A stretch of 40,146 nucleotides of DNA from an uncultured Peptoniphilaceae bacterium (GTDB lineage: Bacteria > Bacillota > Clostridia > Tissierellales > Peptoniphilaceae). Below the pieces are notes generated by a model. It searched no databases. It was given only the letters and a program-made list of their open reading frames with translations, and was not told where the DNA came from. The stretch is taken from contig CAZFWK010000001.1 of NCBI GenBank assembly GCA_964522555.1, positions 10,114 to 50,259 on the forward strand. Direction: 5' to 3'. Numbering within the stretch: position 1 is the stretch's first letter; every line of letters begins with the position of its first letter. Below are positions 6,560 through 18,974 of this stretch, piece after piece. The translations under genes were made by a program, and so were the position numbers.

Positions 6560-7087
6560 TCACTTCGTCCGCTGTTCGAGAATCGACTCCGCAATCGGAA
6601 CCGCGATCTCCTCCATCGCATGGGCTACGCCATACGGCGGGTCGACCTCGTAACGGAAGTCGTCGAGGTAGAAGATAATACTCCCATAATCCGAAAAAAG
6701 GACTTCATAACCTGCAATCTCCCCATTGGGAGCGAATTTGGCATATTCATCCTCAAACTTCGATTGATCCCGGCACCCTATATCCAAGCTATTCCAATGG
6801 CGAGAATTCTGTGGCGACGGATAGGCCGTGCTGATCTGATATCCGTTCACGTCATACCATGTCCTGGTAACCAAAGAAACCGTATAAGTGGTCTTCGAAT
6901 CCGGAAGCACTTCTTTTTTAGGCAAGAGTATCTTCGAGTTCCCCGCCATCTTCTTTGTCAACTCTTCGTAGCTGTCGACATCGTATTCCGGCTGAGGAAA
7001 TTTGGGTAGCGAAACCCAAATCAACACGAAAATCAGAAGCGGGATCACGACGATCGCTACTTTTGTGATCGGATGGTATTTTTTCAT
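6560..7087 (-). CDS. hypothetical membrane-anchored protein
   Basis: The listed ORF is 6560..7108. I prefer the ATG at 7087 (MKKYHPITKVAIVVIPLLIFVLIWV) because AGGAAGGG sits at RBS distance. It has a single N-terminal TM helix. Confidence 0.6.
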   Translation of the reverse strand: MKKYHPITKVAIVVIPLLIFVLIWVSLPKFPQPEYDVDSYEELTKKMAGNSKILLPKKEVLPDSKTTYTVSLVTRTWYDVNGYQISTAYPSPQNSRHWNSLDIGCRDQSKFEDEYAKFAPNGEIAGYEVLFSDYGSIIFYLDDFRYEVDPPYGVAHAMEEIAVPIAESILEQRTK

Positions 7088-7145
7088 ATCACCCTTCCTT
7101 TCTCGCAACGCAGACTCACCGATGCTGTTTCGAGGAGCATGTGTG

Positions 7146-7459
7146 CTACCCTTTACGAAAGCGCCTCGACCTCTTCATCCTTGCTCGCGCATAGTAAAGT
7201 ATGCAAACTGAACAGTTCCCGGCAAAAACGGCCGGTAAAGCGCTTTCAATCATCCATCGTTGCGACAGTATCCCCATTGCATCCAATTTCTTGGTCAACC
7301 GCGCAGAGCCGGAAAAATACCGTATTACGTATATCAGAAGCATGATCAAGACAGGAATCACCAAACCCGGAGCCAGTGATCCGACATCACCAACTTCTCC
7401 TGTGCTAGCAGCGTTGCAACTCCTGCTGAGAGTATAAGAAACATTAATACGACTTCCAT
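7146..7459 (-). pseudogene. possible frameshifted small two-TM membrane protein
   Basis: An ATG at 7459 with a GGAGG RBS opens MEVVLMFLILSAGVATLLAQEKLVMSDHWLRVW and stops at 7358. A different frame (listed ORF 7146..7364) continues with the hydrophobic VIPVLIMLLIYVIRYF... The two frames overlap around 7358..7364. Confidence 0.25.
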
Positions 7460-7563
7460 TTCTTACCTCCGTCTAATTCGGTGTTCTCTTTCATCCATCC
7501 TAAGTCCCTTACTCATTCGATACAGGCCGGTTTTGCAATTCTCTGATTATGCAATCATCGAGC

Positions 7564-7929
7564 CTATCTATCATTGTGATCCGCACTGTTTCTGTAGTTC
7601 CTTATTAGGAACATTCCAAAAATCGAAACGAGAATGATCGGCATTGGCAGAACTTGAAGTTGATGCCAAATACGGTATATGATAAATCCAAGATTCACTA
7701 TCATCAGTATCGGGTAGTTTGTTCTCTCAGTCGTGTCTAGTACTTTTCTCTTTTCATCCAACAAGCAGAAAAGGAGGATTCCAAATATCGCAAAAGCGAT
7801 CACCTGAAAAAAGATCAATCCGTACAGAAATCGAAACTTCTCTGCTACTTCTCTTTGGAAATACCGAAGGATTGGATCATATGAGATTGCAATTAGTTGG
7901 AGACTGAAAAGCAAAAGGTATTTTCTCAT
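7564..7929 (-). CDS. hypothetical multi-pass membrane protein
   Basis: 121-aa ORF with about 3 hydrophobic segments, in AT-rich sequence. No recognisable motif. Confidence 0.5.
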   Translation of the reverse strand: MRKYLLLFSLQLIAISYDPILRYFQREVAEKFRFLYGLIFFQVIAFAIFGILLFCLLDEKRKVLDTTERTNYPILMIVNLGFIIYRIWHQLQVLPMPIILVSIFGMFLIRNYRNSADHNDR

Positions 7930-8073
7930 TGAAACCTCACTTTCGTTACGTGAAAAATTAGGGAATAACGATCTTTTTGCGAAGTCTATCTACTGATCAA
8001 TAGCTGCGTTTCTCAGGGTAAACGACCAACTTGATCCACCTCTTGATAACGATATGGCTGTCGATGCAACTAT

Positions 8074-8766
8074 TTAGCATGGACTTGCATGCGTGGATAC
8101 TGGTCTCCAACTCGCTAATGGATATCTTGTCCAGCTTGTTGTTTTATTGCCAATTGTGTATGTTGTAGAAGCTTGCTGTCCACCTCCGGTATCCGCAGAT
8201 CCTATCTGTGCTAAAGTTACCTTTTGTGAAGTTACATAAACACCATTGCCGGAGTTAGTATAACCACCTGACGTTCTGAGCATCTTACAATATTTTTTAC
8301 CTCCTATAGTTACATAGCTATAATACACTGTACTATAGGCTTTAACCGTAATTGAAGTGTCCCATAGATATTCATATTGACTCCCACCAGTCGATCTAGC
8401 TACTTGTGAACTGATACTATTTCTTGAGAAAAGTCTGACGAAGATTATTTGATTCTTTAAATCGTCATTCTTTTTAGGGTCGGTATTAATAATACTCAGT
8501 ATGTCTTGAGAAAAGACTTCTTTACCATTTGATACACCCTCACTAACTTCATTTCCTACAAAACTATAGATTCCATCGCCATGAATTTTCATATTTGCCT
8601 TCGCGATAAAATCTGGATTTATCATCCGATTCTCTAAGAACATTTCTCTGTGTCTCAAATCATTGTTTTCAACTTTTTGATCCGATGCGTGTACGTTTGA
8701 CTGCATCAAAGCAACAATCCCAATCAGTAACAAAACTTGTTTAAAACAGAATACCCATTTTTTCAT
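8074..8766 (-). CDS. hypothetical secreted protein
   Basis: 230-aa ORF. MKKWVFCFKQVLLLIGIVALMQSNVHA-SD is a classical signal peptide. The C-terminal half is Ser/Thr/Gly/Tyr-rich and beta-like. An RBS AAGGGAG precedes the ATG. Confidence 0.6.
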   Translation of the reverse strand: MKKWVFCFKQVLLLIGIVALMQSNVHASDQKVENNDLRHREMFLENRMINPDFIAKANMKIHGDGIYSFVGNEVSEGVSNGKEVFSQDILSIINTDPKKNDDLKNQIIFVRLFSRNSISSQVARSTGGSQYEYLWDTSITVKAYSTVYYSYVTIGGKKYCKMLRTSGGYTNSGNGVYVTSQKVTLAQIGSADTGGGQQASTTYTIGNKTTSWTRYPLASWRPVSTHASPC

Positions 8767-8991
8767 AGCTGTACTCCCTTTCTTGGTTCAGCTCCATTGT
8801 TCTACGTTGTCTGACCTGCATTAGGTGAATAATAATCAACCTCCTTGTTTTGTAATTCCAATGACGTACAAGATTCTTTGGGATTTGTTTTCAAACTGCT
8901 GGTAAGCTCATTCTCGTTCACAATAGTGTACGCTCTTCCTTTTCGGCATAACGAAGAGGGAGTCGTATTCAATCAGGTCTAAAAAAGGTTG

Positions 8992-9168
8992 TCAGGTCAG
9001 ATTTAGGATGGTTTCCATAAGCTTGGTGAATGCTTTATCTTTTCCATCTGTAGTAATTAAGTCTTTCAGAAGTTCCGAATCTAGGGTAGTATTAAGTTGA
9101 GCCATAGCTTGCCCCCAGTTAGTTTTGTCTGGTAAACTTGTTATACCAAGAGCGAGCTTCTGGTTCAT
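8992..9168 (-). mobile_element. remnant of an IS256-family (mutator-type) transposase N-terminus
   Basis: A 58-codon ORF, below the ORF-track cutoff: MNQKLALGITSLPDKTNWGQAMAQLNTTLDSELLKDLITTDGKDKAFTKLMETILNLT*. The segment LNTTLDSELLKDL...KDKAFTKLMETILN resembles the characteristic N-terminal helix region of IS256-type transposases. The rest of the gene is absent. Confidence 0.4.
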
Positions 9169-9271
9169 TCTTTTTACACCATATATGGCCTTTTTCTTCG
9201 GTTACCGTTCTTGGTATGATAGCATACCTCCTTTTTAGTTATTTCAAAATCGGGAAACATAACTTTAATTT

Positions 9272-9700
9272 TTAATATTTCACCGATTTTGTGTATTTTG
9301 TAATTGTTTCGCCACTACATGTGATTACAGTACGTAATCGATAATTTACTCTAATCGATAGCGAATGTGAGGTGTTGATTGCCGCAGATCCATAACCGGT
9401 TTTGGAAAAAGTGTTAACATTTATCCATCCGCTAGAGGTATATCTTTGTAGGGTCGATACTAAGGTCAAATATCGACCACTATAGACAGCACCTTCAGCA
9501 TAAATAAGAGCTTTATCATTGCTTATATCCAAGTATCCGGAAACATTTTGGATATAAGTTGATGCTGGCAATACACCTGTGTAATCAAACCACTCCACCG
9601 GTTCACTGGATGCATATATGAGACGTGGTTTTGATTGAATAACCAAAGTCGCTAGCATGACTAAGAATAGGCCTTTTAGAATCTCTTTTTTTATTAACAT
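9272..9700 (-). CDS. hypothetical small secreted protein
   Basis: 142-aa ORF with a signal peptide (…LVMLATLVIQSKPRLIYA-SS). It sits directly downstream of the sigma/anti-sigma pair with a 33-nt gap and its own RBS. Confidence 0.6.
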   Translation of the reverse strand: MLIKKEILKGLFLVMLATLVIQSKPRLIYASSEPVEWFDYTGVLPASTYIQNVSGYLDISNDKALIYAEGAVYSGRYLTLVSTLQRYTSSGWINVNTFSKTGYGSAAINTSHSLSIRVNYRLRTVITCSGETITKYTKSVKY

Positions 9701-9733
9701 AGATATATTATTCTCCTTCCTGACATTCTGATC

Positions 9734-10450
9734 CTAACGTTCATACTTCACTTCAATTTTCTCAATAATCGCTCTAGTCTGTTCCCTTTCAAGATTAGAG
9801 TTTACAGTAATCACGATACCATTCACTTCCCAAATAACAGTAATGACATTGTTCTTTTTGTATTCATGCACCTCACTCCCCTTTAAATCATAAACATCAT
9901 ACTCGGCATCTTCAGAGTCTACTGCCCCTACATATCCTTCCGCGAAATAACCTCTTATTCTGATATAACTCGATTTGTTCTCGTACGACAATATCGATAA
10001 GTTGCCGTGATGGCTAGATTCTGTGATTGTAAATCCTTCAGGGATTTTGGATAATTCGATCTCAAATGACTTGGCTGTATCATAGGTGTTAGATGATTCA
10101 TCCAGAACCCAAGTAAATGAAGTATAACTATCAAGAACCTCAATAATAGCTGTATATATTCTATTGCCGATTGCAAAAGCTCTATCCGGACCTATCGCAA
10201 TCGAAAAGACTAGGAGAACAGCAGCAACGAAAGGAAGTGATCGTCTCAAAAAAGGCACAGTCTTATGCTTAGATTTCCCGTTTTTTTCATAATTATAGTC
10301 CTTCTCCTTGCTTCGTAACTCCAGAAATAAGCTATCCATCTTACTATTGAATTTCGGTGAGAAGACTTCATCATAATTTAGAGTTTTTGAATTGGCTTCT
10401 CTTCTTAGTAGAAGTTCCTTCGCATCTTCTTCCTTCCATTTCGATTTCAT
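9734..10450 (-). CDS. putative anti-sigma factor / DUF4367-like single-pass membrane protein
   Basis: 238 aa. It overlaps the sigma gene stop by 4 nt (ATGA). It has a charged N-terminal cytoplasmic part, one TM helix (LPFVAAVLLVFSIAIG), and an extracellular C-terminal domain ending ...VITVIWEVNGIVITVNSNLEREQTRAIIEKIE, which is typical of DUF4367 partners of ECF-like sigmas. Confidence 0.6.
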   Translation of the reverse strand: MKSKWKEEDAKELLLRREANSKTLNYDEVFSPKFNSKMDSLFLELRSKEKDYNYEKNGKSKHKTVPFLRRSLPFVAAVLLVFSIAIGPDRAFAIGNRIYTAIIEVLDSYTSFTWVLDESSNTYDTAKSFEIELSKIPEGFTITESSHHGNLSILSYENKSSYIRIRGYFAEGYVGAVDSEDAEYDVYDLKGSEVHEYKKNNVITVIWEVNGIVITVNSNLEREQTRAIIEKIEVKYER

Positions 10451-10959
10451 CGCTCATCCTCCTCGTGAACAGCCTTTCTAAGTTTTTCCAGTGCCCTTTC
10501 CATCCGTTTTCGTACCGTCGGTTCCGCTACTCCCATCATTTGTGCAATCTCTCGGTATGAATATCCGTCCAAAATTTTAAGGCGCACTAATTCAGCAGAT
10601 TTCTCATCAATTAGAGATAAATAGTACTCCGCACTTTCTGCACCATGCCATTCCGAGTAGTCATCCACGGCTTGTTCCTTTCGGAAAATATATAGCTCTT
10701 GTTCTTTGCTATTCTTTCTCCGATAATTTATGGCGATGCGCTGCGTGATTCGCCCGATATAGGCGCGGAGTGCAAATTCATTGTCGAGACGAATGTTAGA
10801 GTATTGTTCCCACAAAACAATCACTGTATCGTGAAGGATGTCCTGCACATTGCCTTCATCTCTCACAACGCGAAAGGCAATCGCACTCATATAAGTATGA
10901 TATTTATGATAAAGAAACTCGATCATGTCGGTTCTGGATTTCTTATCGAAGTCGGTCAC
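10447..10959 (-). CDS. ECF-type (sigma-70 family, group 4) RNA polymerase sigma factor
   Basis: 170 aa with a GTG start (an alternative ATG lies 11 codons in). Region 2-like VQDILHDTVIVLWEQY and a region 4 HTH (LDGYSYREIAQMMGVAEPTVRKRMERALEKLRK) are present. Confidence 0.85.
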   Translation of the reverse strand: MTDFDKKSRTDMIEFLYHKYHTYMSAIAFRVVRDEGNVQDILHDTVIVLWEQYSNIRLDNEFALRAYIGRITQRIAINYRRKNSKEQELYIFRKEQAVDDYSEWHGAESAEYYLSLIDEKSAELVRLKILDGYSYREIAQMMGVAEPTVRKRMERALEKLRKAVHEEDER

Positions 10960-11072
10960 AAGTCTATTGCTCCTTTCCGATCGAAATACTCCTCTTATCT
11001 ATACTTCGTTTCTGCCCACCGATTTGTGACAGTTTCGGACGAAAAAACGAATATTTTTTAAGTCTATTTGTT

Positions 11073-11107
11073 AAAAAAGGCAGAAGCTCCATACCGAGTC
11101 TTCTGCC
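11073..11107 (-). terminator. rho-independent terminator after the ABC module
   Basis: Minus strand: GGCAGAAG-ACTCGGTATGGAG-CTTCTGCC followed by TTTTTT. Confidence 0.7.
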
Positions 11108-11293
11108 TAATTCATGGGCTGTCTTTCCTGCTCTAATTTCTTACACTTCCGGATTACTTACCTACCGAGACAGTGATTGATACATCAGCAGAATCGCAAT
11201 CAAATCATCTTCATAATGGGGATAATTTCCTCTATTCTACCCTTCTCTTTCCACACCTCTGAACAATTTACCCGACGAGTTCCACTGTACTTA

Positions 11294-11938
11294 CTACTGT
11301 TTTACCCTCCCACGCTTCAGAGAAATCACGAAAATCAGGATCATAAAGACTCCCCACAAAATGCTGGTGAATGCGTGGTGGATGGATACTTGATCATAAA
11401 ATTCGTAGAGCCCATCCCTGTATGGATTCCACGGTAGCGTTTGAAAGAGGCGACCGAAACCGTGAACGAGCAAAAAAAGAATGGATGCAAACAATGTCCA
11501 GGTAATTTCTTTGGTCACATACATCGCAAAAAACCCCAGCCATCCGTACAGCCAGCAAAATAAAAAATAGCGAGCTACAAAGCCGATTCCTGCCGGACTA
11601 AAGGGTGCAAAGAAGACAAACGCCACTGCAAAACCGGTGATAGCGAAAAGAAGGATTAAGCCAATCGTTCTTGCAATCCACCAAATGGGTTTCGGGTGCC
11701 AATGGAAGTGAAGCTCTCCTCCTTGGGATGAGACCGCCTCTCGCAAAAAGAGTACAGGCCATACGCCTGCGAAGACCGGCATCACGTTACTCACGTACGA
11801 TAAGAGGGGCATAACTGGATACTCGGACCGGATGATAAAAAGCTGCAGCCATAACCAAAAAGGCGCAAAAAGGATCCCATAGAGGGGGATCCACTTCCAT
11901 TTGCCAAAAGTCTCAAAACAGAGTTTAATCTCACGCAT
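11294..11938 (-). CDS. hypothetical polytopic membrane protein (possible ABC-2-type permease partner)
   Basis: 214 aa with about 6 hydrophobic, Trp/Phe-rich segments. Its start overlaps the ABC ATPase stop by 8 nt. Confidence 0.55.
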   Translation of the reverse strand: MREIKLCFETFGKWKWIPLYGILFAPFWLWLQLFIIRSEYPVMPLLSYVSNVMPVFAGVWPVLFLREAVSSQGGELHFHWHPKPIWWIARTIGLILLFAITGFAVAFVFFAPFSPAGIGFVARYFLFCWLYGWLGFFAMYVTKEITWTLFASILFLLVHGFGRLFQTLPWNPYRDGLYEFYDQVSIHHAFTSILWGVFMILIFVISLKRGRVKQ

Positions 11939-12741
11939 TTTTGATCAGCGCCAGGTAAATGTCTTCAAGATTCGGTTCTACAAGAGATACCCCTTCAGGA
12001 AGCGGGTTGCCATAGATTCTGCAGATGAGTCCATTTTCTTCCGTTCGTACCTGCAAAACTTGTGCTTTTTCTTCCCATCTTGGAAGTGCTTCCGGTGCAA
12101 TTAGAATCTCTCCTATACAAGAATTCATTTGGCTTCGGAGTGCTTCTTTCGTTTCGTGAACCAATACCTTTCCCTGATGGAGGACCGCGATGGTTTTTCC
12201 AATATGGGCTACATCTTCGACGATATGGGTGGACAGGATGATACACCGATCCTGTCCCAATTCACCGATAAGGTTTCGAAGTTGCACCCGTTCTTTCGGG
12301 TCGAGTCCGACTGTCGGTTCATCCAGAAGGAGTGTTTTTGTATCTCCAACGAGCGCCTGGGCAATTCCCAGGCGACGAAGCATTCCACCGGAAAGATGCC
12401 TGACTCTTTTTCTTCTTTCATCGGTCAGATTGACCTGCGTAAGAACTGTCTCAATTTCTTCCTGGCGCGCTCCTTTAAGTAAGGTCACGTATTCGACAGC
12501 TTCTTCCACTGTCAATTCTTCCATCATCCGAAAGTGTTGCGGAAGATAGCCGGTAGCCTTTTGGCCACCCGCAATTTTCAGTTTTCCGGTCGCGGGGATG
12601 AGTCCCAAAACACAACGAAACAGGGTCGTCTTTCCCGCTCCGTTGGGTCCGAGCAGCCCATGTACTCCTTTTCCAAATTCCAGTGTGACCTGATCCAGTA
12701 CCTTTTTTCGATTTCGTCTCAGTGTTCAGTTTTATGTTCAT
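11931..12741 (-). CDS. ABC transporter ATP-binding protein (DrrA/ABC-2-type), reading frame broken near the N-terminus
   Basis: The frame that is open from 12725 to 11931 encodes KKVLDQVTLEFGKGVHGLLGPNGAGKTT (Walker A), LSGGMLRRLGIAQAL (signature) and LLLDEPTVGLD (Walker B). That frame has no ATG/GTG/TTG before the Walker A motif. A typical ATPase start, ATG-MNIKLN, is at 12741 but in a different frame. The listed ORF 11931..12608 starts after Walker A. Confidence 0.75.
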
Positions 12742-13635
12742 TTCTTCCCACTGAAACCGGGGTGACTCGTAGGGGATTTCTTCCCGGTCGTAATAAAATT
12801 CGTTATCTTTCTTCACCGGGGTGAGAACGAGATCTCCTTGACCCACCGTATATGAAATGGGACGCTGCATGGTTGTAATTCCCGTAGAGACGAGGACAAC
12901 ACCGAGTGCAGATAGCAATATGGCTTTTTTCTTCTGACTCTTAACAAATCCGCATATGGGAATCAGGCTGACCGCCAACCAAAAGAGTCGTTTGGACCAC
13001 TGGCCCATCGATAAATCAAATCCTTGCAGTGCATTAAACATCTTGTGCGCGCCAGGCAATCCAAAGTCGGGTGCTAAGGGCAGATCAACCGACAAGAGCT
13101 GGCCAACCGCAACAATCCAAGGTGCTCCTAAAGAGCCCAGAAAGAAACCGATCACGGCAGCCAGGAGATAGCCTTGTACGAGCGGCACTTTTCTGCCAAG
13201 AGCCCATCCAATATTTCCCCCGATGCACATGGGCAAGAAGTAGTATAAGAGTAGGGCGATAAGTGATTGACCTAAAATATGGACCGGATGATCGCTCCAA
13301 AAGTAGGCAAGTGTGGTCATCCCCATCATACAGAGCACGCAAAAAAGGAAAGCCAGATCTAAGGCAAAGGTCTGTGTCCAGATACGAGCTTCTTCTTTTT
13401 TGCAAAGACGAATCCATTCCTCCGCACCCGAAACCTTTTGGGAAGCTCCGAACCGATACCCCGAGAATACCGCCCAAAAGATTGCCAGCTGGTGTAAAAA
13501 TGTATACGCGTGAAAGACTGTGATACTCTCCAACCAAAGACCCAGTCCGGTGCTCAAAATGATGAGAATCACAAAAACGCGATTGATGATATCATTTCGA
13601 ATTCGCTTAAATTCCAGCTGTAATAGGGTGAACAT
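12475..13635 (-). CDS. polytopic membrane protein (ABC-2 permease-like); the ORF as it stands reads through into the ATPase gene out of frame
   Basis: An AAGGAGG RBS precedes the ATG at 13635. MFTLLQLEFKRIRNDIINRVFVILIIL... has multiple TM segments up to about 12830. After ...RFQWEE the same frame contains the ATPase-like start MNIKLN (12741) and then a low-complexity Arg/Gly-rich tail. That tail is the ATPase gene read in the wrong frame. Confidence 0.6.
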   Translation of the reverse strand: MFTLLQLEFKRIRNDIINRVFVILIILSTGLGLWLESITVFHAYTFLHQLAIFWAVFSGYRFGASQKVSGAEEWIRLCKKEEARIWTQTFALDLAFLFCVLCMMGMTTLAYFWSDHPVHILGQSLIALLLYYFLPMCIGGNIGWALGRKVPLVQGYLLAAVIGFFLGSLGAPWIVAVGQLLSVDLPLAPDFGLPGAHKMFNALQGFDLSMGQWSKRLFWLAVSLIPICGFVKSQKKKAILLSALGVVLVSTGITTMQRPISYTVGQGDLVLTPVKKDNEFYYDREEIPYESPRFQWEEMNIKLNTETKSKKGTGSGHTGIWKRSTWAARTQRSGKDDPVSLCFGTHPRDRKTENCGWPKGYRLSSATLSDDGRIDSGRSCRIRDLT

Positions 13636-13704
13636 AAATCCTCCTTGGGAAATGTCTATATTAGCAACGCTTACTTGCTTCCATTTTTACAGTGCGAACG
13701 AGTC

Positions 13705-14346
13705 TTAATCCCATAAAGTTCCTCGTCCACTGCATCCCTTCGTTTCAATATTCACCGGATCTAACTCCAAAAGATGAGACCCATAGACAAATGCAGGAAT
13801 TTTATATCTTGTGGAACGATTGTCACCCGGAACAACACGTAAGGCGTCCACTTCTATATCCAATGTAGTCAATTTTCGACGATGAATTAAAATTCCAAAC
13901 AACGCTCTAACAGAACTCGCGTCGTTATTTGATAAAAAAGCGAGGAATATCACAGTGAGCCGTCTCTCTCCGCACATTTGCATAGCTAGTGTTACCGTTG
14001 ACGTGCAAACTAATTGAATATTCTCTTGATCAAACGAACTGCACTCGCGTACGATCGCCATTGAACCCATAATAATCAGAACCACAGTCACTGTCTTGAG
14101 ATAATAACCCATCTTTGTCTTACAGTGATTATTGTCTAATGGGCTTACAAATGAATACAGCCCTGTAATAAGAACTAACATTTCTTTTACCAGATCCATT
14201 TTACCTGCTATTAACAGTACAGGTGCAATAAGTGCGAGCCTAAGTAAAGTTGCCTTGTATCCATAAACAGCAATTCGAAATTCTCTTTCATCAATCACAT
14301 GACCTATTTGAAAAGGTATGTACCTGTTAATAATCGGATTTTTCAT
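13705..14346 (-). CDS. AgrB-like membrane protein (putative autoinducer-peptide processing enzyme), divergent
   Basis: The listed ORF is 13705..14379; I prefer the ATG at 14346 (MKNPIINRY...). A gapless by-eye alignment with S. aureus AgrB (from memory) puts EFRIAVYGYK on QFLQVRLGMQ. It also puts the His of ...PLDNNHCKT exactly on AgrB His77 (same 45-residue spacing from the conserved Gly). About 4-5 TM segments. Confidence 0.45.
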   Translation of the reverse strand: MKNPIINRYIPFQIGHVIDEREFRIAVYGYKATLLRLALIAPVLLIAGKMDLVKEMLVLITGLYSFVSPLDNNHCKTKMGYYLKTVTVVLIIMGSMAIVRECSSFDQENIQLVCTSTVTLAMQMCGERRLTVIFLAFLSNNDASSVRALFGILIHRRKLTTLDIEVDALRVVPGDNRSTRYKIPAFVYGSHLLELDPVNIETKGCSGRGTLWD

Positions 14347-14473
14347 TTTCCAACATCTGTCGAATATGGAGTCTCTCATCGTCTTTAAACCAGATCAAAA
14401 AGCTACCGCTATGAACTTCTAACGAGGCAAGTAAGATCCCTAAACTTAGGAATGCTCTTGCAATAGTTTTCAT
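14327..14473 (-). CDS. 48-aa AgrD-like autoinducing-peptide precursor candidate (not in the ORF track)
   Basis: AAGGAGG (14487..14481), a 7-nt spacer, then the ATG at 14473. Product: MKTIARAFLSLGILLASLEVHSGSFLIWFKDDERLHIRQMLENEKSDY. It has an amphipathic N-terminal leader, a hydrophobic core SFLIWF and an acidic/charged C-terminal tail. It overlaps the AgrB-like gene start by 20 nt. Confidence 0.45.
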   Translation of the reverse strand: MKTIARAFLSLGILLASLEVHSGSFLIWFKDDERLHIRQMLENEKSDY

Positions 14474-14492
14474 CTACACACCTCCTTGTATG

Positions 14493-14544
14493 ATCATATG
14501 GTACCATGAGATAAGCAACAAGAGACAATTCATGTCTAAACGGT
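14493..14544 (-). promoter_or_regulatory. sigma-70-type promoter for the peptide/AgrB-like/ABC unit, with one LytTR-consensus-like 9-mer upstream
   Basis: Minus strand: TTGTTG (14521..14516), a 17-nt spacer, then TATGAT (14498..14493). ACCGTTTAG (14544..14536) fits the published LytTR site pattern [TA][AC][CA]GTTN[AG][TG]. I found no convincing second repeat. Confidence 0.4.
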
Positions 14545-14589
14545 GGTTATTTTTGATTTATCTATATTGAGTAAATTTCATCGTTATAT

Positions 14590-15813
14590 TTATGGTATTT
14601 TAACGGTAGTACGATAGGTGTTGCCCCCAATCTGAATCGATAGATTCCCGTCATGTTTTTCAACGATTCGCTTCACGCTTTTCAGCCCGATCCCCCTGTT
14701 GGGATCTTTGCTACTATTTATTAACTTATCTTCGACCCACCTATTTTCGATTTGGATTGTGACCATCTGTGGAGTTTGTTTCATCTTGATTACCAGTATT
14801 CTCTCTTCAATGGACACTTGAAGTAACGCGTTCATCGCATTGTCCAAAAGATTTCCGATCAAAACAGCTGTATCCGTTGCATCCATTGGGATTGTTTTCG
14901 CGACACGCATATCGATCTGCAAATTTTCCGGGTAGAACATCGATGGATCAATTTTTTTATTCATCAATAGATTGACTCGTTCATTTTCACTGTAGTTATG
15001 AAACTTATGATTATCTACACCTTCTAATAGTTCTTGGATTTTTTCTGTTCGTTCTGATTCTTGGATTGCTAAGAGCCCCAATAACATATTGCTTATATCA
15101 TGTTTATACCTTCGAATTTCGCTTTCATAATGCGCGAATTGTTTATAGTATTGCTCCTGCGCTTCCAATCTTAAAGCCAACTCAAAGGTGCGCTTTTCGC
15201 TCGTATATTGTCTTGTCGAAAACTCAAAAGCAATAAACACCAAGACCGAAAGCAGCAAAAGCATCATCTCTTGAAAGAACCATCGCAAAGTTGGTAGTTC
15301 AGGTGCGTTTACATCGGGAGAAAATAAAAACACATAGCTGGTTATGAGTGCCCATACTAATCCCATAACGAACTGCAATCGATTCGGGATGATTTCTTCT
15401 GACCTTTTATGTTTGACTATGATGATTTGGATAATAACAATACGTAACAACGAGGAGGTGAAGCCGTGAAAATAATAATTCGATAGCATGTCCTGCCCAA
15501 GTAAGTTAAAGATCTGAAAGAGAACAAGCTCAAATGCCATCGAAAGACCGATTAAAGCAATGATATACTGAACTCGCTTTTTCCAATGTCCTTCAAATAG
15601 AAAACTAATCCCCAATAACAAAAGTGTCATTGCAATACTGTTTGCTATAGGATTTCGCCATACATTTATATAAATGAGTCCAAAATATAGACATACCGTG
15701 ATAAATGCAACTCGAATGAAAGGAAATCGAGTCTCTCCTAAATACATGGTAAAGTACCGAAAGATAATGTAAAACTCTGCTAAGTTGTTCACGCTGTGAA
15801 ATAGAAGTTCCAA
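14590..15813 (-). CDS. AgrC/ComD-like (HPK10, GHKL) sensor histidine kinase
   Basis: 407 aa with a TTG start after GGAGGAG. The N-terminal half has about 6 TM helices. H-box RRYKHDISNML, N-box IGNLLDNAMNAL and G-box NRGIGLKSVKRIVEKHDG are present. Confidence 0.85.
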   Translation of the reverse strand: MELLFHSVNNLAEFYIIFRYFTMYLGETRFPFIRVAFITVCLYFGLIYINVWRNPIANSIAMTLLLLGISFLFEGHWKKRVQYIIALIGLSMAFELVLFQIFNLLGQDMLSNYYFHGFTSSLLRIVIIQIIIVKHKRSEEIIPNRLQFVMGLVWALITSYVFLFSPDVNAPELPTLRWFFQEMMLLLLSVLVFIAFEFSTRQYTSEKRTFELALRLEAQEQYYKQFAHYESEIRRYKHDISNMLLGLLAIQESERTEKIQELLEGVDNHKFHNYSENERVNLLMNKKIDPSMFYPENLQIDMRVAKTIPMDATDTAVLIGNLLDNAMNALLQVSIEERILVIKMKQTPQMVTIQIENRWVEDKLINSSKDPNRGIGLKSVKRIVEKHDGNLSIQIGGNTYRTTVKIP

Positions 15814-15826
15814 TAAATCTCCTCCT

Positions 15827-16546
15827 CTAGTAATATGCAGTGAATGCCTTTCTTAGATGCTTGACCCCTTCTTCGCTAGCTTCTAGGTCACGACCGTCCC
15901 TGAGTCGTACAATAATCTTGAAAGTGGGGTCTATTTGGGGGACAATTCTAGATACATGAGACACTTGAACATATGTGCTTCGATTAATTTTGATAAATAG
16001 ATTCGCATCTCCGATTCTATTGACGATACTTTTAAGGCTTTCTGTAGATTCGAATAAATCTCCATCCAGCGTATGAAGTACACTTTTTCTCGATTCTCTT
16101 TCAATCGATACGATTTCGTCAATTAAGAGAACTATTTTTTGATGGTTTTCGATTATTTCTAAAGACCGTCTTGGACCTGATTTCTTTTTGAGTACCTCGC
16201 GTAAAACCGATTCGAGCTCCTCTCTATCAATGGGCTTAAGAAGATAGTCCAGAGGGTGCGCTTTGTAGCCTTCCAATGCAAATTCTCGATGCGAGGTAAC
16301 AAAAACAATTTCGCTTTGATGGTTCGTCTCTCGGATTCCCTTCGCAATAGTAATGCCATCCTCTCCGGGCATTTCGATATCCAGAAGATACAGGTCATAT
16401 TCGCTAACCGTTCTTTTTCGATCTAGCACATTAGCATTACTAAAATCATGAATCATTAGCGATTCAATTGGGAGGATTTCTTTTATAAGACATCGTATTT
16501 GGGTGCGGAAGACTTCTTCGTCATCCAGAATTGCAATGCGTAGCAT
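15827..16546 (-). CDS. LytTR-family response regulator (AgrA-like)
   Basis: The listed ORF extends to 16669, but the ATG at 16546 follows AGGGGGAA and gives the canonical receiver start MLRIAILDDEE...LLDIEMPGEDG...LLKP. The C-terminal LytTR domain reads IVLLIDEIVSIERESRKSVLHT...FIKINRSTYVQVSHV. Confidence 0.9.
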   Translation of the reverse strand: MLRIAILDDEEVFRTQIRCLIKEILPIESLMIHDFSNANVLDRKRTVSEYDLYLLDIEMPGEDGITIAKGIRETNHQSEIVFVTSHREFALEGYKAHPLDYLLKPIDREELESVLREVLKKKSGPRRSLEIIENHQKIVLLIDEIVSIERESRKSVLHTLDGDLFESTESLKSIVNRIGDANLFIKINRSTYVQVSHVSRIVPQIDPTFKIIVRLRDGRDLEASEEGVKHLRKAFTAYY

Positions 16547-16734
16547 GATATTCCCCCTAGATAATTTTTGATCCGAAAACACTACTGCTAGTATATCACA
16601 GTAACCCGATAAGAATTTCCCGCTAGAATTCCAATTCTTCCTATAACTATTTAATTCACATATTTCCATAAAAAGAAGCCGTACTTTTTCCGTGTTAATT
16701 CTTGGAAAGAGTTCGGCTTCATTCGAAATATTTA

Positions 16735-16977
16735 CTATCCTCCGCCCAGTGAGCGAAGGATTAGGATATGATCCCCCTCCTCAAGCGTATCGCCTGGCGA
16801 TAGGGGTTGTGATTGTCGTAGTACTGTATACAAGTTTGCCTTGTCGTCCCATAGGGTGCCCTTTTCGAAGAGTTGGGACAGCAATTCTTGGACGGTCGCA
16901 TGGTCGGCGAGCGTTTCTTCCGATTGTCGGTTTTTCGCACTTGCCATAATACCCAGGCATTTTACGGAGACTTTCAT
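16735..16977 (-). CDS. MoaD/ThiS-family ubiquitin-like sulfur-carrier protein
   Basis: 80 aa ending ...ILILRSLGGG (C-terminal Gly-Gly). Its start overlaps the AOR stop (ATGA). Confidence 0.7.
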   Translation of the reverse strand: MKVSVKCLGIMASAKNRQSEETLADHATVQELLSQLFEKGTLWDDKANLYTVLRQSQPLSPGDTLEEGDHILILRSLGGG

Positions 16978-18827
16978 TTTTTGTATAAGTCGGCTTTGAC
17001 CTCTTCCAGTCCTCCGATCTCGTCCAGGAATTTTTCCGTGGGGACGCCGGTGTCCGGGTCGTATCCCATGGTTTCGAAGAAATTCCTTGCCAAGAGCTTT
17101 GTGTCGATGTCGACTCCTTCAAGCGGGCCACTTTCTAGCGGAGGGTGTCCGACTGCGCGTTCTGACATCGTCATATCTTTCGGATAAATCCCCTCTCTTA
17201 GATTGAATGCGTGGCGCAGCGTGTAGATCCGTTTGCCTGTGTTGTTGTATTCTTCCGTTGATCGTACTCTTCCGGTAATCGCTTGATTCAGAAGCTCGTC
17301 GATCCCGGGTGGCGCGCAATATGCCGCAAAGAAGCACAGCCCGCTGCAGTTTAGCATTTCGATATGCGCCACGCTTGCGACGTCCGCATCGCCTGTATTT
17401 TCGTAAATGTATTTGGACGGGTCGCTTGATAGCATCTGCGTAAATCCGGCGCCTCCCTTTACATGCCTTCCCGGGCTCGGGTCGTATTGATAGGTTCTGG
17501 CGACACCCGGTGCAAAGCGCGCGTCGTGCATCGGAAGCTCGATTCCCGAGGCGGTTTGCAGATACTCTTCCCCTTTTCCAAAGTGTTTGGCGGCGTAGGC
17601 GGATCCGTTCGCCATAATTGCGCCGACGCCTTCACATGCAGCCATCTTTTCCGTAATGGCGACGATGGCTTCCGCGTTCCCCCATGTAAGGTCTATCCCG
17701 TCGAGCTCCTCTTTCGATAACATGCCGTTTTCGTAGCACTCCATCGCCCAAGCGACGGTCATCCCGGCTGAGATCGTGTCAAACCCGGCGCGATTTCAGA
17801 TTTCGTTGCACTTTAGCATCGCGTGTTCGTTGCCGTTTAGGATGGTGGAGCCGAATGCGGCCGCGGTCTCGTATTCGGGGCGTTCCGTCTCTTTCATCGG
17901 CCAGGGGCCGTCATTCACCTCGTATGTTGCACCGCAGCCTAAAGGACAATTGGCGCAGTTGTATTTTTTCTTCTTATAGCGGTCGAGGTTCATCGCCGAA
18001 AAACGCTCCGCGCTTTCCTCCCCGTAATCGGAAATGCCTACGCCTTGCCAGTTTTTCACAGGGGAATCTCCGCTTAAGGCGGATGCCGCCGTCATCGCAC
18101 CGGTTCCGTACTCGCCAAATGCGAGGGCCATGTCTCCCGTCTTTACGACCTCGACAATGCCTTTGTTCAGTTCCGTAATGCGGTCTTCGTCGTCGACTTC
18201 GATTTTCCCGGTTCCGTATACGACAACCGCTTTCAGCTTTTTCGAACCCATCACAGCACCCAAACCGCCCCTCGCCGGAGCTCGATGCCCGTCGTTGATC
18301 GGGCAGGAGATCAGCGACTCCTGTTCACCCGGCTTTCCGATCGCCATCACGCGCGCTTTCGGCTGTTCGACTTCGTCTTTCAAGATCGGGATGATCTCTT
18401 TGCAGTCGATCCCTGCAAGATGTGAGGCTTCTCGAATTTCCGCTTCTCCTTCGTGGATCCACAGATACACCGGTTTTTCGGAGATCCCCGAAATAAACAC
18501 GCCGTCGAAGCCCGCCTTTTTCAGCTCGGGGCCGATATAGCCTCCGGAGTTGGCGTCGTTCCACCCTCCGGTAACGGGCGATTTACAAACGACCGCGTAT
18601 CTTCCGCTGAAGAAACTCCGCGTTCCCGTGGTCGGTCCCGTCACGATTCCGAAGATATTGTCCGGTCCCAAGGGGTCTGCCCCGGCTGGCATTCTGTCGT
18701 ACAATACTTTCGCTCCGATCCCGTAACCGCCGACATACTTTCTCGTCCACTCCTCCGGTAGCGCCTCTTTCGTGATCGCTCCTGTCGTCAGGTCTACAAA
18801 CAATAACTGTCCCGCATACCCTTTCAT
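16974..18827 (-). CDS. aldehyde:ferredoxin oxidoreductase (tungstopterin AOR family), interrupted by a single in-frame TGA at 17796..17798
   Basis: The two listed ORFs (17796..18935 and 16974..17762) are in the same frame. The joined reading is ...HAMLKCNEI-TGA-NRAGFDTISAGMTVAWAMECYENG.... The N-terminus MKGYAGQLLFVDLTTG (ATG 18827 after AAAGGAG), the 4Fe-4S motif CANCPLGC, and the GFDTIS and MLNCSGLC motifs are AOR hallmarks. Confidence 0.85.
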
Positions 18828-18852
18828 TTTGCTTCTCCTTTCATGATTGGGA

Positions 18853-18974
18853 CGCAAAAAAAGCCATGCGCGTCCCTTGGGGCACATGACTCCTTTCCGA
18901 ACACGGGAGGCGAGCGGATTGCTCCACTCACCCATAGTCCGGCATAACCTTTCAGGCTAAGCCGAATCGGAGTA
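18853..18974 (-). promoter_or_regulatory. Moco/Tuco-type riboswitch candidate with intrinsic terminator
   Basis: The minus-strand RNA is ACUCCGAUUCGGCUUAGCCUGAAAGGUUAUGCCGG...GCUCGCCUCCCGUGUUCGGAAAGGAGU. P1 is ACUCC/GGAGU, and the GCCUCCC and GGAAAGGAG elements are as I recall them for the Moco motif. A hairpin CAUGUGCCCCAAGGGACGCGCAUGGC plus U7 follows (18853..18888). It sits upstream of the AOR and MoaD-like genes. Confidence 0.6.

What the first reader, a model, noticed from the sequence alone, without database searches (positions are those of the whole stretch)
13705..14346. AgrB-like protein keeps the catalytic His position but has Tyr at the catalytic Cys position, with Cys displaced to His+1
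A gapless by-eye alignment with S. aureus AgrB (recalled sequence ...QFLQVRLGMQ...LIRRHAHGAHAPSSFWC...) matches the conserved Gly (VYGYK vs RLGMQ). Exactly 45 residues later it matches the His corresponding to His77.

At the position of Cys84 (His+7) this protein has Tyr (NNH-CKTKMG-Y), and a Cys sits immediately after the His. AgrB His77/Cys84 are the established catalytic residues for AgrD cleavage and acyl-enzyme formation.

A shifted or replaced nucleophile, paired with a Cys-free substrate peptide, could indicate altered chemistry. It could equally mean an inactive relic. The protein also has a C-terminal soluble extension of about 60 aa that is absent from S. aureus AgrB.
Basis: partly seen in the sequence, partly recalled or inferred. 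Interest (0 to 1): 0.65.

Follow-up and report, generated by a model that had tools for sequence, protein, structure and literature searches.

The report
Decayed AgrB-like peptidase gene remnant
This gene is a damaged copy of a rare, very divergent relative of the AgrB peptide-signal-processing enzyme: it has lost the catalytic cysteine by one base change and its tail is a fragment of the neighbouring gene, so it most likely no longer makes a signal.

Summary
A profile-profile alignment against eight annotated AgrB proteins is gapless over 82 columns. It places window His74 on S. aureus His77, Tyr81 on the catalytic Cys84, and Cys75 on Ala78.

The interpretation needs revising. An exhaustive search of 1.84 billion representative proteins found only three relatives, and a neighbouring-peptide search added a fourth. 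All four carry H-C-x-T-R-x-x-C-Y. So the Cys next to His is a subfamily trait. The canonical Cys is ancestral and was lost here by a single TGT-to-TAT change.

The "60-aa soluble extension" is not an AgrB domain. Residues 141-213 are homologous to the C-terminal 71 residues of a small secreted protein that relatives encode just downstream of agrB (tblastn E 1.7e-6; z 14.8 against shuffles). The AgrB part keeps only three strong transmembrane segments, against six in relatives. The ABC ATPase two genes downstream is frameshifted at about codon 7.

The best reading is a recently decayed signal-production arm beside an intact-looking sensor kinase and LytTR regulator.

The subfamily itself is new. 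Its precursor peptides lack Cys in every lineage and carry Lys, Ser or (here) Phe at the predicted ring-forming position.

The parts
13987..14346 (-). AgrB-homologous part of the ORF (residues 1-120; TM1-TM3 plus a weakly hydrophobic TM4 equivalent). Contains Gly29, His74, Cys75 and Tyr81.
   Evidence: blastp to P0006 covers residues 18-120 at 33% identity, E 2e-15. hhalign to canonical AgrBs is gapless over residues 16-97. Hydropathy.
14104..14127 (-). Active-site motif H-C-K-T-K-M-G-Y. His74 = 14125-14127 (CAC), Cys75 = 14122-14124 (TGT), Tyr81 = 14104-14106 (TAT) at the position of the catalytic Cys84 of S. aureus AgrB.
   Evidence: Direct reading. Alignments. The relative in L011 has TGT at this codon.
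13927..13986 (-). Junction segment (residues 121-140, AMQMCGERRLTVIFLAFLSN). It could be a remnant of AgrB TM5 or of the downstream gene's signal peptide. No Shine-Dalgarno sequence precedes the internal ATGs.
13705..13926 (-). Residues 141-213 plus the stop codon. This is the 3' fragment of a homologue of the ~130-aa signal-peptide-bearing protein that relatives encode just downstream of agrB-like. It ends ...LDPVNIETKGCSGRGTLWD*.
   Evidence: tblastn of L8_129 residues 59-129 gives 32% identity, E 1.7e-6, in the same frame as the AgrB part. Smith-Waterman score 83 against 23.4 +/- 4.0 for shuffles, 0 of 2000 reaching it. No signal against the AgrB C-termini of relatives.
14327..14473 (-). 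48-aa Cys-free AgrD-like precursor peptide, MKTIARAFLSLGILLASLEVHSGSFLIWFKDDERLHIRQMLENEKSDY. It has a strong AGGAGG ribosome-binding site and overlaps the AgrB-like start by 20 nt.
   Evidence: Homologous peptides lie next to every relative. Pfam and NCBIfam AgrD models do not recognise it.
14590..15813 (-). AgrC-type sensor histidine kinase (407 aa, GHKL HATPase_c_5). Full length relative to homologues.
   Evidence: Pfam E 3e-18. 36-40% identity end to end with the kinases of L007 and L012.
15827..16546 (-). LytTR-family response regulator (239 aa). Full length relative to homologues.
   Evidence: Pfam Response_reg plus LytTR. 41-42% identity over 233 aa with the regulators of L007 and L012.
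12742..13635 (-). Multi-pass membrane protein ORF of about 298 aa with no stop codon of its own. It runs in frame into the ATPase start and then out of frame to 12475, which produces the listed 386-aa ORF. Homologues in relatives are 645-648 aa.
11931..12741 (-). ABC transporter ATPase gene with a frameshift at about 12723. ATG at 12741-12739 encodes MNIKLN; the rest (TLRRNRKKVLDQVTLEFGKGVHGLLGPNGAGKTT...) is in another frame that has a TGA immediately upstream.
   Evidence: tblastn to L8_ABC gives 42% identity over 264 aa with an in-frame stop at alignment position 2. DNA read directly. The same broken gene calls appear in six metagenome contigs.
11294..11938 (-). 214-aa membrane protein, positional equivalent of the 211-213-aa membrane proteins that end the relatives' loci. 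No detectable sequence similarity.

Best explanation
**What it is.** The ORF is a recently decayed, chimeric remnant of an AgrB-type membrane peptidase gene from a rare, very divergent agr-like locus.

**The intact locus type.** In relatives the gene order is: LytTR regulator, AgrC-like kinase, Cys-free ~50-aa precursor peptide, six-TM AgrB-like protein with the motif H-C-x-T-R-x-x-C-Y, ~130-aa secreted protein, ~645-aa membrane protein, ABC ATPase, ~212-aa membrane protein.

**What changed in the window lineage (shown).**
1. The codon for the canonical nucleophile changed from TGT to TAT (Cys to Tyr).
2. The 3' end of agrB-like (at least TM6) and the 5' part of the downstream secreted-protein gene are missing. 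The two remnants are fused in frame, which produces the 'soluble extension'.
3. The ABC ATPase gene is frameshifted at about codon 7, and the preceding membrane-protein ORF has no stop of its own.

**What I infer.**
- The protein can no longer form the acyl-enzyme thioester that AgrB uses to remove the C-terminal tail of its precursor and cyclise it.
- So this locus no longer produces or exports its own peptide signal.
- The kinase and regulator are full length and may still work as a listening-only module.
- The loss is recent. The ORF is still open, the other subfamily-invariant residues are intact, and the AgrB part is not unusually diverged.
For: - **Register and loss of Cys.** hhalign is gapless and places Y81 on C84. 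His77 and Cys84 are invariant in the 8 annotated AgrBs. PMC10482373 describes them as the catalytic dyad that forms the acyl-enzyme thioester.
- **Relatives keep the Cys.** P0006, P0007, P0008 and the L012 protein all have Cys at His+7 as well as Cys at His+1. The relative in L011 uses TGT where the window has TAT.
- **Chimeric tail.** tblastn gives E 1.7e-6 in the same frame. The shuffle test gives z 14.8, and there is no similarity to AgrB C-termini. The tail keeps the natural ...LWD* end, and the 69-nt spacer to the next gene compares with 65 nt in L008.
- **Topology.** The window protein has three strong hydrophobic segments, against six in P0006 and P0007.
- **Structure model.** AlphaFold2 gives pLDDT about 30 for residues 124-213.
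- **ATPase frameshift.** Seen by tblastn and by direct reading, and present in six independent metagenome contigs.
- **Intact architecture elsewhere.** The full locus is seen in two lineages, L008/L010 and L016.
- **Precursor peptide.** The window peptide has Phe at the predicted ring-forming position, where relatives have Lys or Ser.
Against: - The ORF is uninterrupted over 213 codons in roughly 40% GC DNA.
- All other subfamily-invariant residues are retained: G29, P42, I46, L63, H74, C75, T77, Y82, K84 and T85.
- Its AgrB part is 33-39% identical to relatives. That is no more diverged than they are from each other, at 25-30%. There is therefore no sign of long neutral drift.
- Translational coupling to the peptide gene and the peptide's strong ribosome-binding site are intact.
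- A 94-95-aa 'mini-AgrB' that ends after TM3 shows dN/dS of about 0.3 between two lineages. Loss of the C-terminal helices may therefore not abolish function in this subfamily.
- Cys75 is invariant and could in principle serve as the nucleophile.
- Too few SNPs exist among the available contigs to measure selection.
- No expression or biochemical data are available.
Confidence: 0.6

Rival explanations
1. The protein is still an active peptidase with a shifted nucleophile. Cys75, next to His74, attacks the precursor in place of the lost His+7 Cys. The product from the Cys-free peptide is linear or Ser-linked.
For: - Cys at His+1 is invariant in all five subfamily sequences, whereas canonical AgrBs have Ala or Leu there.
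- The rest of the motif and the N-terminal half are well conserved.
- The ORF is open and translationally coupled to the peptide gene.
- A three-TM mini form appears to be under purifying selection elsewhere.
Against: - Every other lineage also keeps the His+7 Cys, so both cysteines are normally required or at least retained.
- Adjacent residues rarely form a working dyad.
- The same locus carries two further lesions: the chimeric tail and the ATPase frameshift.
- The peptide has also lost the Lys/Ser at the predicted ring position.
Confidence: 0.17
2. It is a catalytically dead pseudoenzyme kept for a non-catalytic role. Possible roles are binding or sequestering the precursor peptide, or acting as a membrane partner for the kinase.
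For: The ORF is open, the non-nucleophile motif residues are conserved, and the divergence is normal. The kinase and regulator appear full length.
Against: - There is no precedent in the agr literature I read.
- The partial beta-rich tail and the missing TM helices look like accidents of deletion rather than design.
- The contigs available all come from one near-clonal species (at least 99.86% identical), so retention over time is not shown.
Confidence: 0.13
3. It is not related to AgrB at all, and the match is a chance similarity between hydrophobic membrane helices.
For: The window protein alone scores only 11.9 bits on PF04647 (E 0.15, below the cut-off of 23) and 3 bits on my canonical HMM. 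The C-terminal AgrB motifs (Y-x-P...T...P) are absent.
Against: - The link holds transitively. The window protein matches P0006, P0007 and P0008 at E 1e-7 to 4e-5 against 1.84 billion sequences. P0007 and P0008 pass Pfam's AgrB threshold.
- hhalign gives E 1.5e-5, with His and Cys columns coinciding without gaps.
- The genomic context is agr-like: a small peptide, a HATPase_c_5 kinase and a LytTR regulator.
Confidence: 0.03

Closest known systems
AgrB (Pfam PF04647), the integral-membrane cysteine peptidase/macrocyclase of staphylococcal and clostridial agr quorum-sensing loci
   Same: - The N-terminal half (TM1-TM3) is homologous, with a gapless register to S. aureus AgrB.
- The conserved Gly and the catalytic His are in place.
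- The gene sits next to a ~48-aa tripartite precursor peptide, an AgrC-type GHKL kinase and a LytTR regulator.
   Different: - Tyr replaces the catalytic Cys84 equivalent.
- Cys replaces Ala at His+1.
- The canonical invariants R70 and G75 and the C-terminal Y-x-P...T...P...P motif are absent.
- There are only three strong TM segments.
- The C-terminus is a fragment of another gene.
- Gene order is regulator-kinase-peptide-agrB rather than agrBDCA.
- The locus continues into an ABC transporter module.
The H-C-x-T-R-x-x-C-Y AgrB-like subfamily found here (P0006 and the L012 protein from a Peptoniphilaceae MAG, GCA_964510345.1; P0007 and P0008 from metagenomes)
   Same: - 33-39% identity over the N-terminal 70-103 residues.
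- The same invariant residues (H, C at +1, T, Y, K, T).
- Homologous Cys-free peptides, kinases, regulators and ABC ATPase in the same order.
   Different: - Relatives keep Cys at His+7.
- P0006 and P0007 have six hydrophobic segments and their own stop codon.
- In relatives the downstream ~130-aa secreted protein is a separate, complete gene with a signal peptide.
- Their ATPase genes are intact.
AgrD precursors and (thio)lactone autoinducing peptides, including the Ser-lactone of S. intermedius
   Same: The window peptide has the same three parts in the same size range: an amphipathic N-terminal leader, a short hydrophobic core and a charged C-terminal tail with an acidic residue at the predicted +2 position.
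   Different: - No Cys occurs in any family member.
- The predicted ring position holds Lys (three peptides), Ser (one peptide type, seen in L011 and L012) or Phe (window).
- The canonical E-P-K-x-P-x-x-L tail motif is absent.
- Pfam and NCBIfam AgrD models do not match.
Naturally occurring agr-defective variants (own knowledge: loss-of-function agr alleles arise often in S. aureus)
   Same: Disabling point, frameshift or deletion mutations lie in a quorum-sensing locus that otherwise looks recently functional. Related loci here show similar damage: the regulator is split in L013-L015, and L001 has a 1-nt deletion at the kinase 5' end.
   Different: Here the lesions cluster in the signal-production and export genes rather than in the kinase or regulator. 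They appear fixed in all sampled contigs of the species.

Membership tests
AgrB family (PF04647) | Scores at or above Pfam's gathering threshold on the AgrB HMM | tested here: not met
   11.9 bits, E 0.15, against a cut-off of 23. Relatives P0007 (36.0) and P0008 (37.9) pass; P0006 (16.9) does not.
AgrB family (PF04647) | Detectable homology to bona fide AgrBs by profile-profile comparison | tested here: met
   hhalign of the subfamily against 8 annotated AgrBs: probability 79%, E 1.5e-5, 82 gapless columns covering TM1-TM3 only. An HMM of canonical AgrBs hits the relatives at E about 1e-6 in a small database.
AgrB family (PF04647) | Catalytic His (S. aureus His77) | tested here: met
   His74 aligns to His77. 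It is invariant in both alignments.
AgrB family (PF04647) | Catalytic Cys nucleophile (S. aureus Cys84) | tested here: not met
   Tyr81 (TAT) occupies the column. Cys is invariant in the 8 canonical AgrBs and present in all 4 subfamily relatives.
AgrB family (PF04647) | Other residues invariant in canonical AgrBs: R70, G75, Y123, P125, T128, P132, P180 | tested here: not met
   None has an equivalent in the window protein. R70 and G75 are also absent in the relatives, and the C-terminal motif region has no detectable counterpart.
AgrB family (PF04647) | Six-transmembrane-helix topology (model cited in PMC10482373) | tested here: not met
   A Kyte-Doolittle scan finds three strong segments in the window protein and six in P0006 and P0007. 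The AlphaFold2 model is too poor to add anything (pLDDT 45).
AgrB family (PF04647) | agr-type genomic context: adjacent small precursor peptide, AgrC-type kinase, LytTR regulator | tested here: met
AgrB family (PF04647) | Cleaves the C-terminal tail of the precursor and cyclises it | not testable with these tools
   This needs a co-expression and mass-spectrometry assay.
AgrD / cyclic lactone autoinducer peptide family (the neighbouring 48-aa peptide) | Matches the AgrD sequence models and has Cys (or Ser) five residues before the cleavage site | tested here: not met
   No Pfam or NCBIfam hit for any of the five family peptides. There is no Cys. The predicted ring position is Phe in the window peptide, with Ser one residue earlier. 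The cleavage site is inferred by analogy, not measured.
Decayed gene / pseudogene | Loss of an essential residue plus structural disruption relative to intact homologues, with collateral damage in the same operon | tested here: met
   Cys to Tyr, chimeric tail, lost TM segments and ATPase frameshift.
Decayed gene / pseudogene | Relaxed selection (dN/dS near 1, accelerated divergence, or internal stops) | tested here: inconclusive
   There are no internal stops. Divergence from relatives is not elevated. Only three variable sites occur in the ORF among the available sequences.

The most novel reading that the evidence does not exclude
The H-C...C AgrB-like subfamily may process Cys-free precursors by chemistry not yet described for agr systems. 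One possibility is capture of the acyl-enzyme by the conserved Lys side chain at ring position 1, giving a side-chain macrolactam (K-Y-[IF]-W-x). Another is capture by Ser, giving a lactone. The invariant Cys next to His would take part in catalysis. On that reading the window's Tyr81 variant could still be active through Cys75, which would make it a natural shifted-nucleophile AgrB.
Probability: 0.1. Interest if true: 0.8.

Novelty: new variant of a known kind. Interest (0 to 1): 0.4.

Why it matters
**The window gene itself.** The result is mostly deflationary. A striking active-site anomaly is explained by ordinary gene decay, and the 'extra domain' is a deletion scar.

**What remains interesting.** The gene points to a very rare branch of the agr world. 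I found only five AgrB-like lineages in total, using two searches. One was an exhaustive search of 1.84 billion sequences that represent about 15 billion proteins. The other was a search for neighbouring peptides.

In this branch no precursor peptide contains the cysteine that defines autoinducing-peptide chemistry. The enzyme carries an invariant His-Cys pair in addition to the canonical Cys.

If the intact relatives are active, they would extend AgrB-type macrocyclases beyond thiolactone and lactone products. The window's natural Cys-to-Tyr allele, together with the Y81C revertant, would be a ready-made control pair for testing which cysteine does the work.

It is also another example of a bacterium losing signal production while keeping the receptor.

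Tried and rejected
- **Word-indexed protein search.** With the protein alone and with a 4-sequence profile, it returned only the query cluster and two of the relatives already found.
- **PDB sequence searches.** With the protein and with the profile, there was no AgrB-like hit.
- **Genome scans (GTDB representatives).** The protein alone found nothing. The profile found only the Peptoniphilaceae MAG.
- **JGI metagenome scan.** Nothing found.
- **Phage collection.** tblastn with P0007 gave no match.
- **AlphaFold2.** With the 4-sequence alignment it gave pLDDT 45.5 and pTM 0.28. That is too poor for fold search or for active-site geometry, so I ran no fold search.
- **Hidden frameshift in the AgrB C-terminal half.** The three-frame translation shows no alternative hydrophobic frame. 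Rejected.
- **Tail as a diverged AgrB C-terminus.** MAFFT hinted at this. The shuffle test showed no similarity to the AgrB C-termini (z below 1) but z 14.8 to the downstream-gene family. Rejected.
- **The window peptide's odd core as decay.** Only partly supported. L011 and L012 have a similar 'SGSSFIWY' core, so there is a genuine Ser-type sub-clade.
- **dN/dS within the species.** Only 7-15 SNPs per 11 kb, which is too few.
- **LytTR-type direct repeats.** I searched upstream of the peptide and regulator genes and found none in the window. The promoter and terminator consensus scan was uninformative.
- **SECIS-like hairpin after the AOR TGA.** No better than shuffles.
- **Literature.** Searches for Cys-free or Lys-lactam AgrD systems found nothing that matches.
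Full report
**1. What is at the coordinates**

The finding's coordinates (13705-14346) are a minus-strand ORF of 213 codons plus a stop. A longer 224-codon version starts at 14379. Relatives start at the equivalent of 14346.

The minus-strand gene order is:
- LytTR response regulator, 15827-16546
- AgrC-type GHKL histidine kinase, 14590-15813
- 48-aa Cys-free peptide, 14327-14473
- the AgrB-like ORF
- a multi-pass membrane ORF, listed as 12475-13635
- an ABC ATPase, 11931-12741
- a 214-aa membrane protein, 11294-11938

The block lies in a low-GC stretch (37-46%) between flanks of 50-55% GC. The same locus, at least 99.86% identical, occurs on six independently assembled metagenome contigs.

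**2. Checking the observation**

The active-site stretch reads D-N-N-H-C-K-T-K-M-G-Y-Y-L-K-T. His74 is at 14125-14127, Cys75 at 14122-14124 and Tyr81 at 14104-14106.

On its own the protein is only a sub-threshold Pfam AgrB match: 11.9 bits, E 0.15, against a cut-off of 23. That match is gapless.

To test the register with real sequences I fetched eight annotated agrB genes from plasmid records: S. aureus, Clostridium estertheticum, C. taeniosporum and Latilactobacillus curvatus. In their alignment His77 and Cys84 are invariant, and His+1 is Ala or Leu.

A profile-profile comparison of the window's subfamily against these eight gave probability 79%, E 1.5e-5 and 82 gapless columns. Window residue n aligns with S. 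aureus residue n+3. So Gly29=Gly32, His74=His77, Cys75=Ala78 and Tyr81=Cys84.

The review PMC10482373 describes Cys84 and His77 as the catalytic dyad that forms the acyl-enzyme thioester.

**3. Relatives, and what they say about the His-Cys pair**

The word-indexed search found only the query's own cluster, five near-identical sequences. An exhaustive phmmer search of 1.84 billion representatives found just three true relatives:
- P0006, 173 aa, E 1e-7
- P0007, 178 aa
- P0008, 94 aa

A fourth, a 95-aa protein in L012, turned up through its neighbouring peptide. P0007 and P0008 pass Pfam's AgrB threshold with 36 and 38 bits. That anchors the group to the AgrB family transitively.

All four relatives read H-C-x-T-R-x-x-C-Y-[LIM]-K-T. 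They have Cys at His+1 and also Cys at His+7. The His+1 Cys is therefore a conserved trait of the subfamily, not a displaced nucleophile.

The window's Tyr is a derived loss of the canonical Cys. The L011 relative has GGA TGT TAC where the window has GGT TAT TAT, a single G-to-A transition.

**4. The C-terminal extension is a piece of the next gene**

Two relatives have long contexts: L008/L010 from a Peptoniphilaceae MAG, and L016. In both, the agrB-like gene (173-178 aa, six hydrophobic segments) is followed by a separate gene for a ~130-aa protein with a signal peptide. After that come a ~645-aa membrane protein, an ABC ATPase and a ~212-aa membrane protein.

Evidence that the window's tail comes from that downstream gene:
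- tblastn of the L008 129-aa protein against the whole window hits 13926-13708, in the same frame as the AgrB part.
- The hit covers residues 59-129 of that protein, through its natural ...G-C-x-G-x-G-x-L-W-D stop. It has 32% identity and E 1.7e-6.
- A shuffle test gives a Smith-Waterman score of 83 against 23.4 +/- 4.0, with 0 of 2000 shuffles reaching it.
- The tail shows no similarity to the C-terminal parts of P0006 or P0007 (z below 1).

The window ORF therefore has three parts:
- an AgrB part, residues 1-120, aligned to P0006 residues 6-108
- a 20-residue junction of ambiguous origin, either a TM5 remnant or a signal-peptide remnant, with no ribosome-binding site before its internal ATGs
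- 73 residues of the downstream gene

The window protein has only three strong hydrophobic segments. The AlphaFold2 model, although poor overall, drops to pLDDT of about 30 from residue 124 onward.

**5. Collateral damage in the operon**

The ABC ATPase aligns to the L008 ATPase over 264 residues at 42% identity, but with an in-frame stop at the second aligned position.

Reading the DNA shows ATG AAC ATA AAA CTG AAC (MNIKLN) at 12741-12724 in one frame. The continuation, T-L-R-R-N-R-K-K-V-L-D-Q-V-T-L-E-F-G-K-G-V-H-G-L-L-G-P-N-G-A-G-K-T-T, is in another frame. That frame carries TGA, TAA and TGA just upstream. This is a frameshift at about codon 7, consistent with a 2-nt loss in AAC-ACA-CTG.

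The upstream membrane ORF has no stop of its own and runs through this point. That is why the listing shows a 386-aa ORF. Its homologues are 645-648 aa, and similarity is confined to the N-terminal membrane part.

All six metagenome contigs show the same broken gene calls.

The kinase and regulator, in contrast, align end to end with their homologues at 36-42% identity. One contig (L001) has a 1-nt deletion near the kinase 5' end.

**6. The peptides**

Every lineage has a homologous 47-53-aa peptide just upstream of, and overlapping, the agrB-like gene. None contains Cys. Pfam and NCBIfam AgrD models do not recognise them.

They do have the AgrD layout of amphipathic leader, hydrophobic core and charged tail. 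Trp28, Asp31 and Glu33 are invariant.

In AgrDs annotated next to the canonical agrBs, the ring Cys lies 5-6 residues before a tail that carries an acidic residue at +2. If the invariant Asp31 is taken as +2 (an inference), cleavage would follow residue 29. Ring position 1 would then be:
- Lys in three peptides (LP-x-K-Y-[IF]-W-x)
- Ser in the L011/L012 type (SGSSFIWY)
- Phe in the window (SGSFLIWF), with Ser one residue earlier

The papers I read describe Cys, rarely Ser, and homodetic lactams that arise from thiolactones. I found nothing on Lys-linked or Cys-free agr peptides.

**7. Weighing the explanations**

*For decay:*
- the lost nucleophile
- the deletion scar
- the lost helices
- the neighbouring frameshift
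- the missing side-chain nucleophile in the peptide

*Against long-standing decay:*
- The ORF is open.
- Every other subfamily-invariant residue is kept.
- The AgrB part is 33-39% identical to relatives, which are only 25-30% identical to each other.

So either the damage is recent or the protein is still constrained.

A further caution concerns the 94-95-aa forms in L011 and L012. They end after TM3 yet show dN/dS of about 0.31 (17 synonymous against 23 non-synonymous differences). Three helices may therefore suffice in this subfamily. That locus also shows decay in some strains, where the regulator is split in L013-L015.

My estimates are:
- recently decayed, non-functional production arm: 0.6
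- active enzyme using Cys75: about 0.17
- retained pseudoenzyme: about 0.13
- not AgrB-related: about 0.03

**8. Comparison with the known, and novelty**

The window protein descends from the AgrB family. It fails several defining features of a working AgrB: the catalytic Cys, the Pfam threshold, the C-terminal invariant motif and the six-helix topology. I therefore file it as an AgrB-derived remnant, not as an AgrB.

The subfamily it belongs to is a new variant of the agr kind. It differs in several ways:
- the gene order is regulator-kinase-peptide-agrB
- it carries an H-C...C motif
- it lacks R70 and G75 and the Y-x-P...T...P motif
- its precursors are Cys-free
- it has an attached secreted-protein and ABC-transporter module

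It is also extremely rare in public data.

The window gene on its own is of modest interest. The family it reveals, and the natural Cys-to-Tyr allele as a test reagent, raise the score somewhat.

Noticed in passing
window 12700-12745 (minus strand): The ABC ATPase gene is frameshifted at about codon 7. MNIKLN is in one frame, and the Walker A motif and the rest are in another frame with stops just upstream. The preceding membrane-protein ORF has no stop of its own and runs through this point. The same state is seen in six metagenome contigs.
   Followed up: yes
window 17796-17798 (minus strand), inside the aldehyde:ferredoxin oxidoreductase gene 16974-18935: The AOR gene is split by a single in-frame TGA (...KCNEI-TGA-NRAGFDTIS...). 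Contig L002 has TGC (Cys) there and an intact 617-aa gene. The window and five other contigs have TGA. The downstream RNA folds no better than shuffles (z -0.02), so there is no SECIS-like signal. It is probably a nonsense polymorphism, but a Sec/Cys pair is not fully excluded.
   Followed up: partly
L008 56-217, L009 258-401 and 1224-1367, L016 8035-8178 and 9001-9144: Relatives' precursor peptides share the core L-P-x-K-Y-[IF]-W-[FHY] followed by an acidic tail, and have no Cys. The conserved Lys sits where AgrD has its ring Cys. This suggests a Lys-linked lactam or a linear signal. L016 carries two such peptide genes flanking the agrB-like gene.
   Followed up: partly
L012 8141-8428 and L011 152-436: A 94-95-aa 'mini-AgrB' ends right after TM3 and keeps both His and both Cys residues. 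dN/dS is about 0.31 between the two versions. Nucleotide homology between L011 and L012 stops at the end of this gene. In L013-L015 the adjacent response regulator is split into two ORFs.
   Followed up: partly
L010 and L012 (both from MAG GCA_964510345.1, uncultured Peptoniphilaceae): One genome carries two paralogous loci of this rare family, a Lys-type locus and a Ser-type locus. Each is a low-GC block (38-42%) between flanks of 50-55% GC, the same pattern as in the window.
   Followed up: no
L001 (equivalent to window ~15790): One metagenome contig has a 1-nt deletion near the 5' end of the histidine kinase gene. The kinase is then called as 385 aa instead of 407 aa.
   Followed up: partly
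window 9734-10959 (minus strand): An ECF sigma factor (170 aa) and a DUF4367 protein (238 aa, a likely anti-sigma partner) lie just downstream of the locus. A diverged pair (26-30% identity) lies next to the related locus in L016.
   Followed up: no
window 16735-16977 (minus strand): An 80-aa ORF ending in ...SLGGG sits directly downstream of the AOR gene. The C-terminal Gly-Gly suggests a MoaD/ThiS-type sulfur-carrier protein. It has no Pfam hit on record in the contig listings.
   Followed up: no
window 7000-17000: GC content drops to 37-46% against 50-55% in the flanks. This is consistent with a horizontally acquired block that includes the agr-like locus.
   Followed up: no
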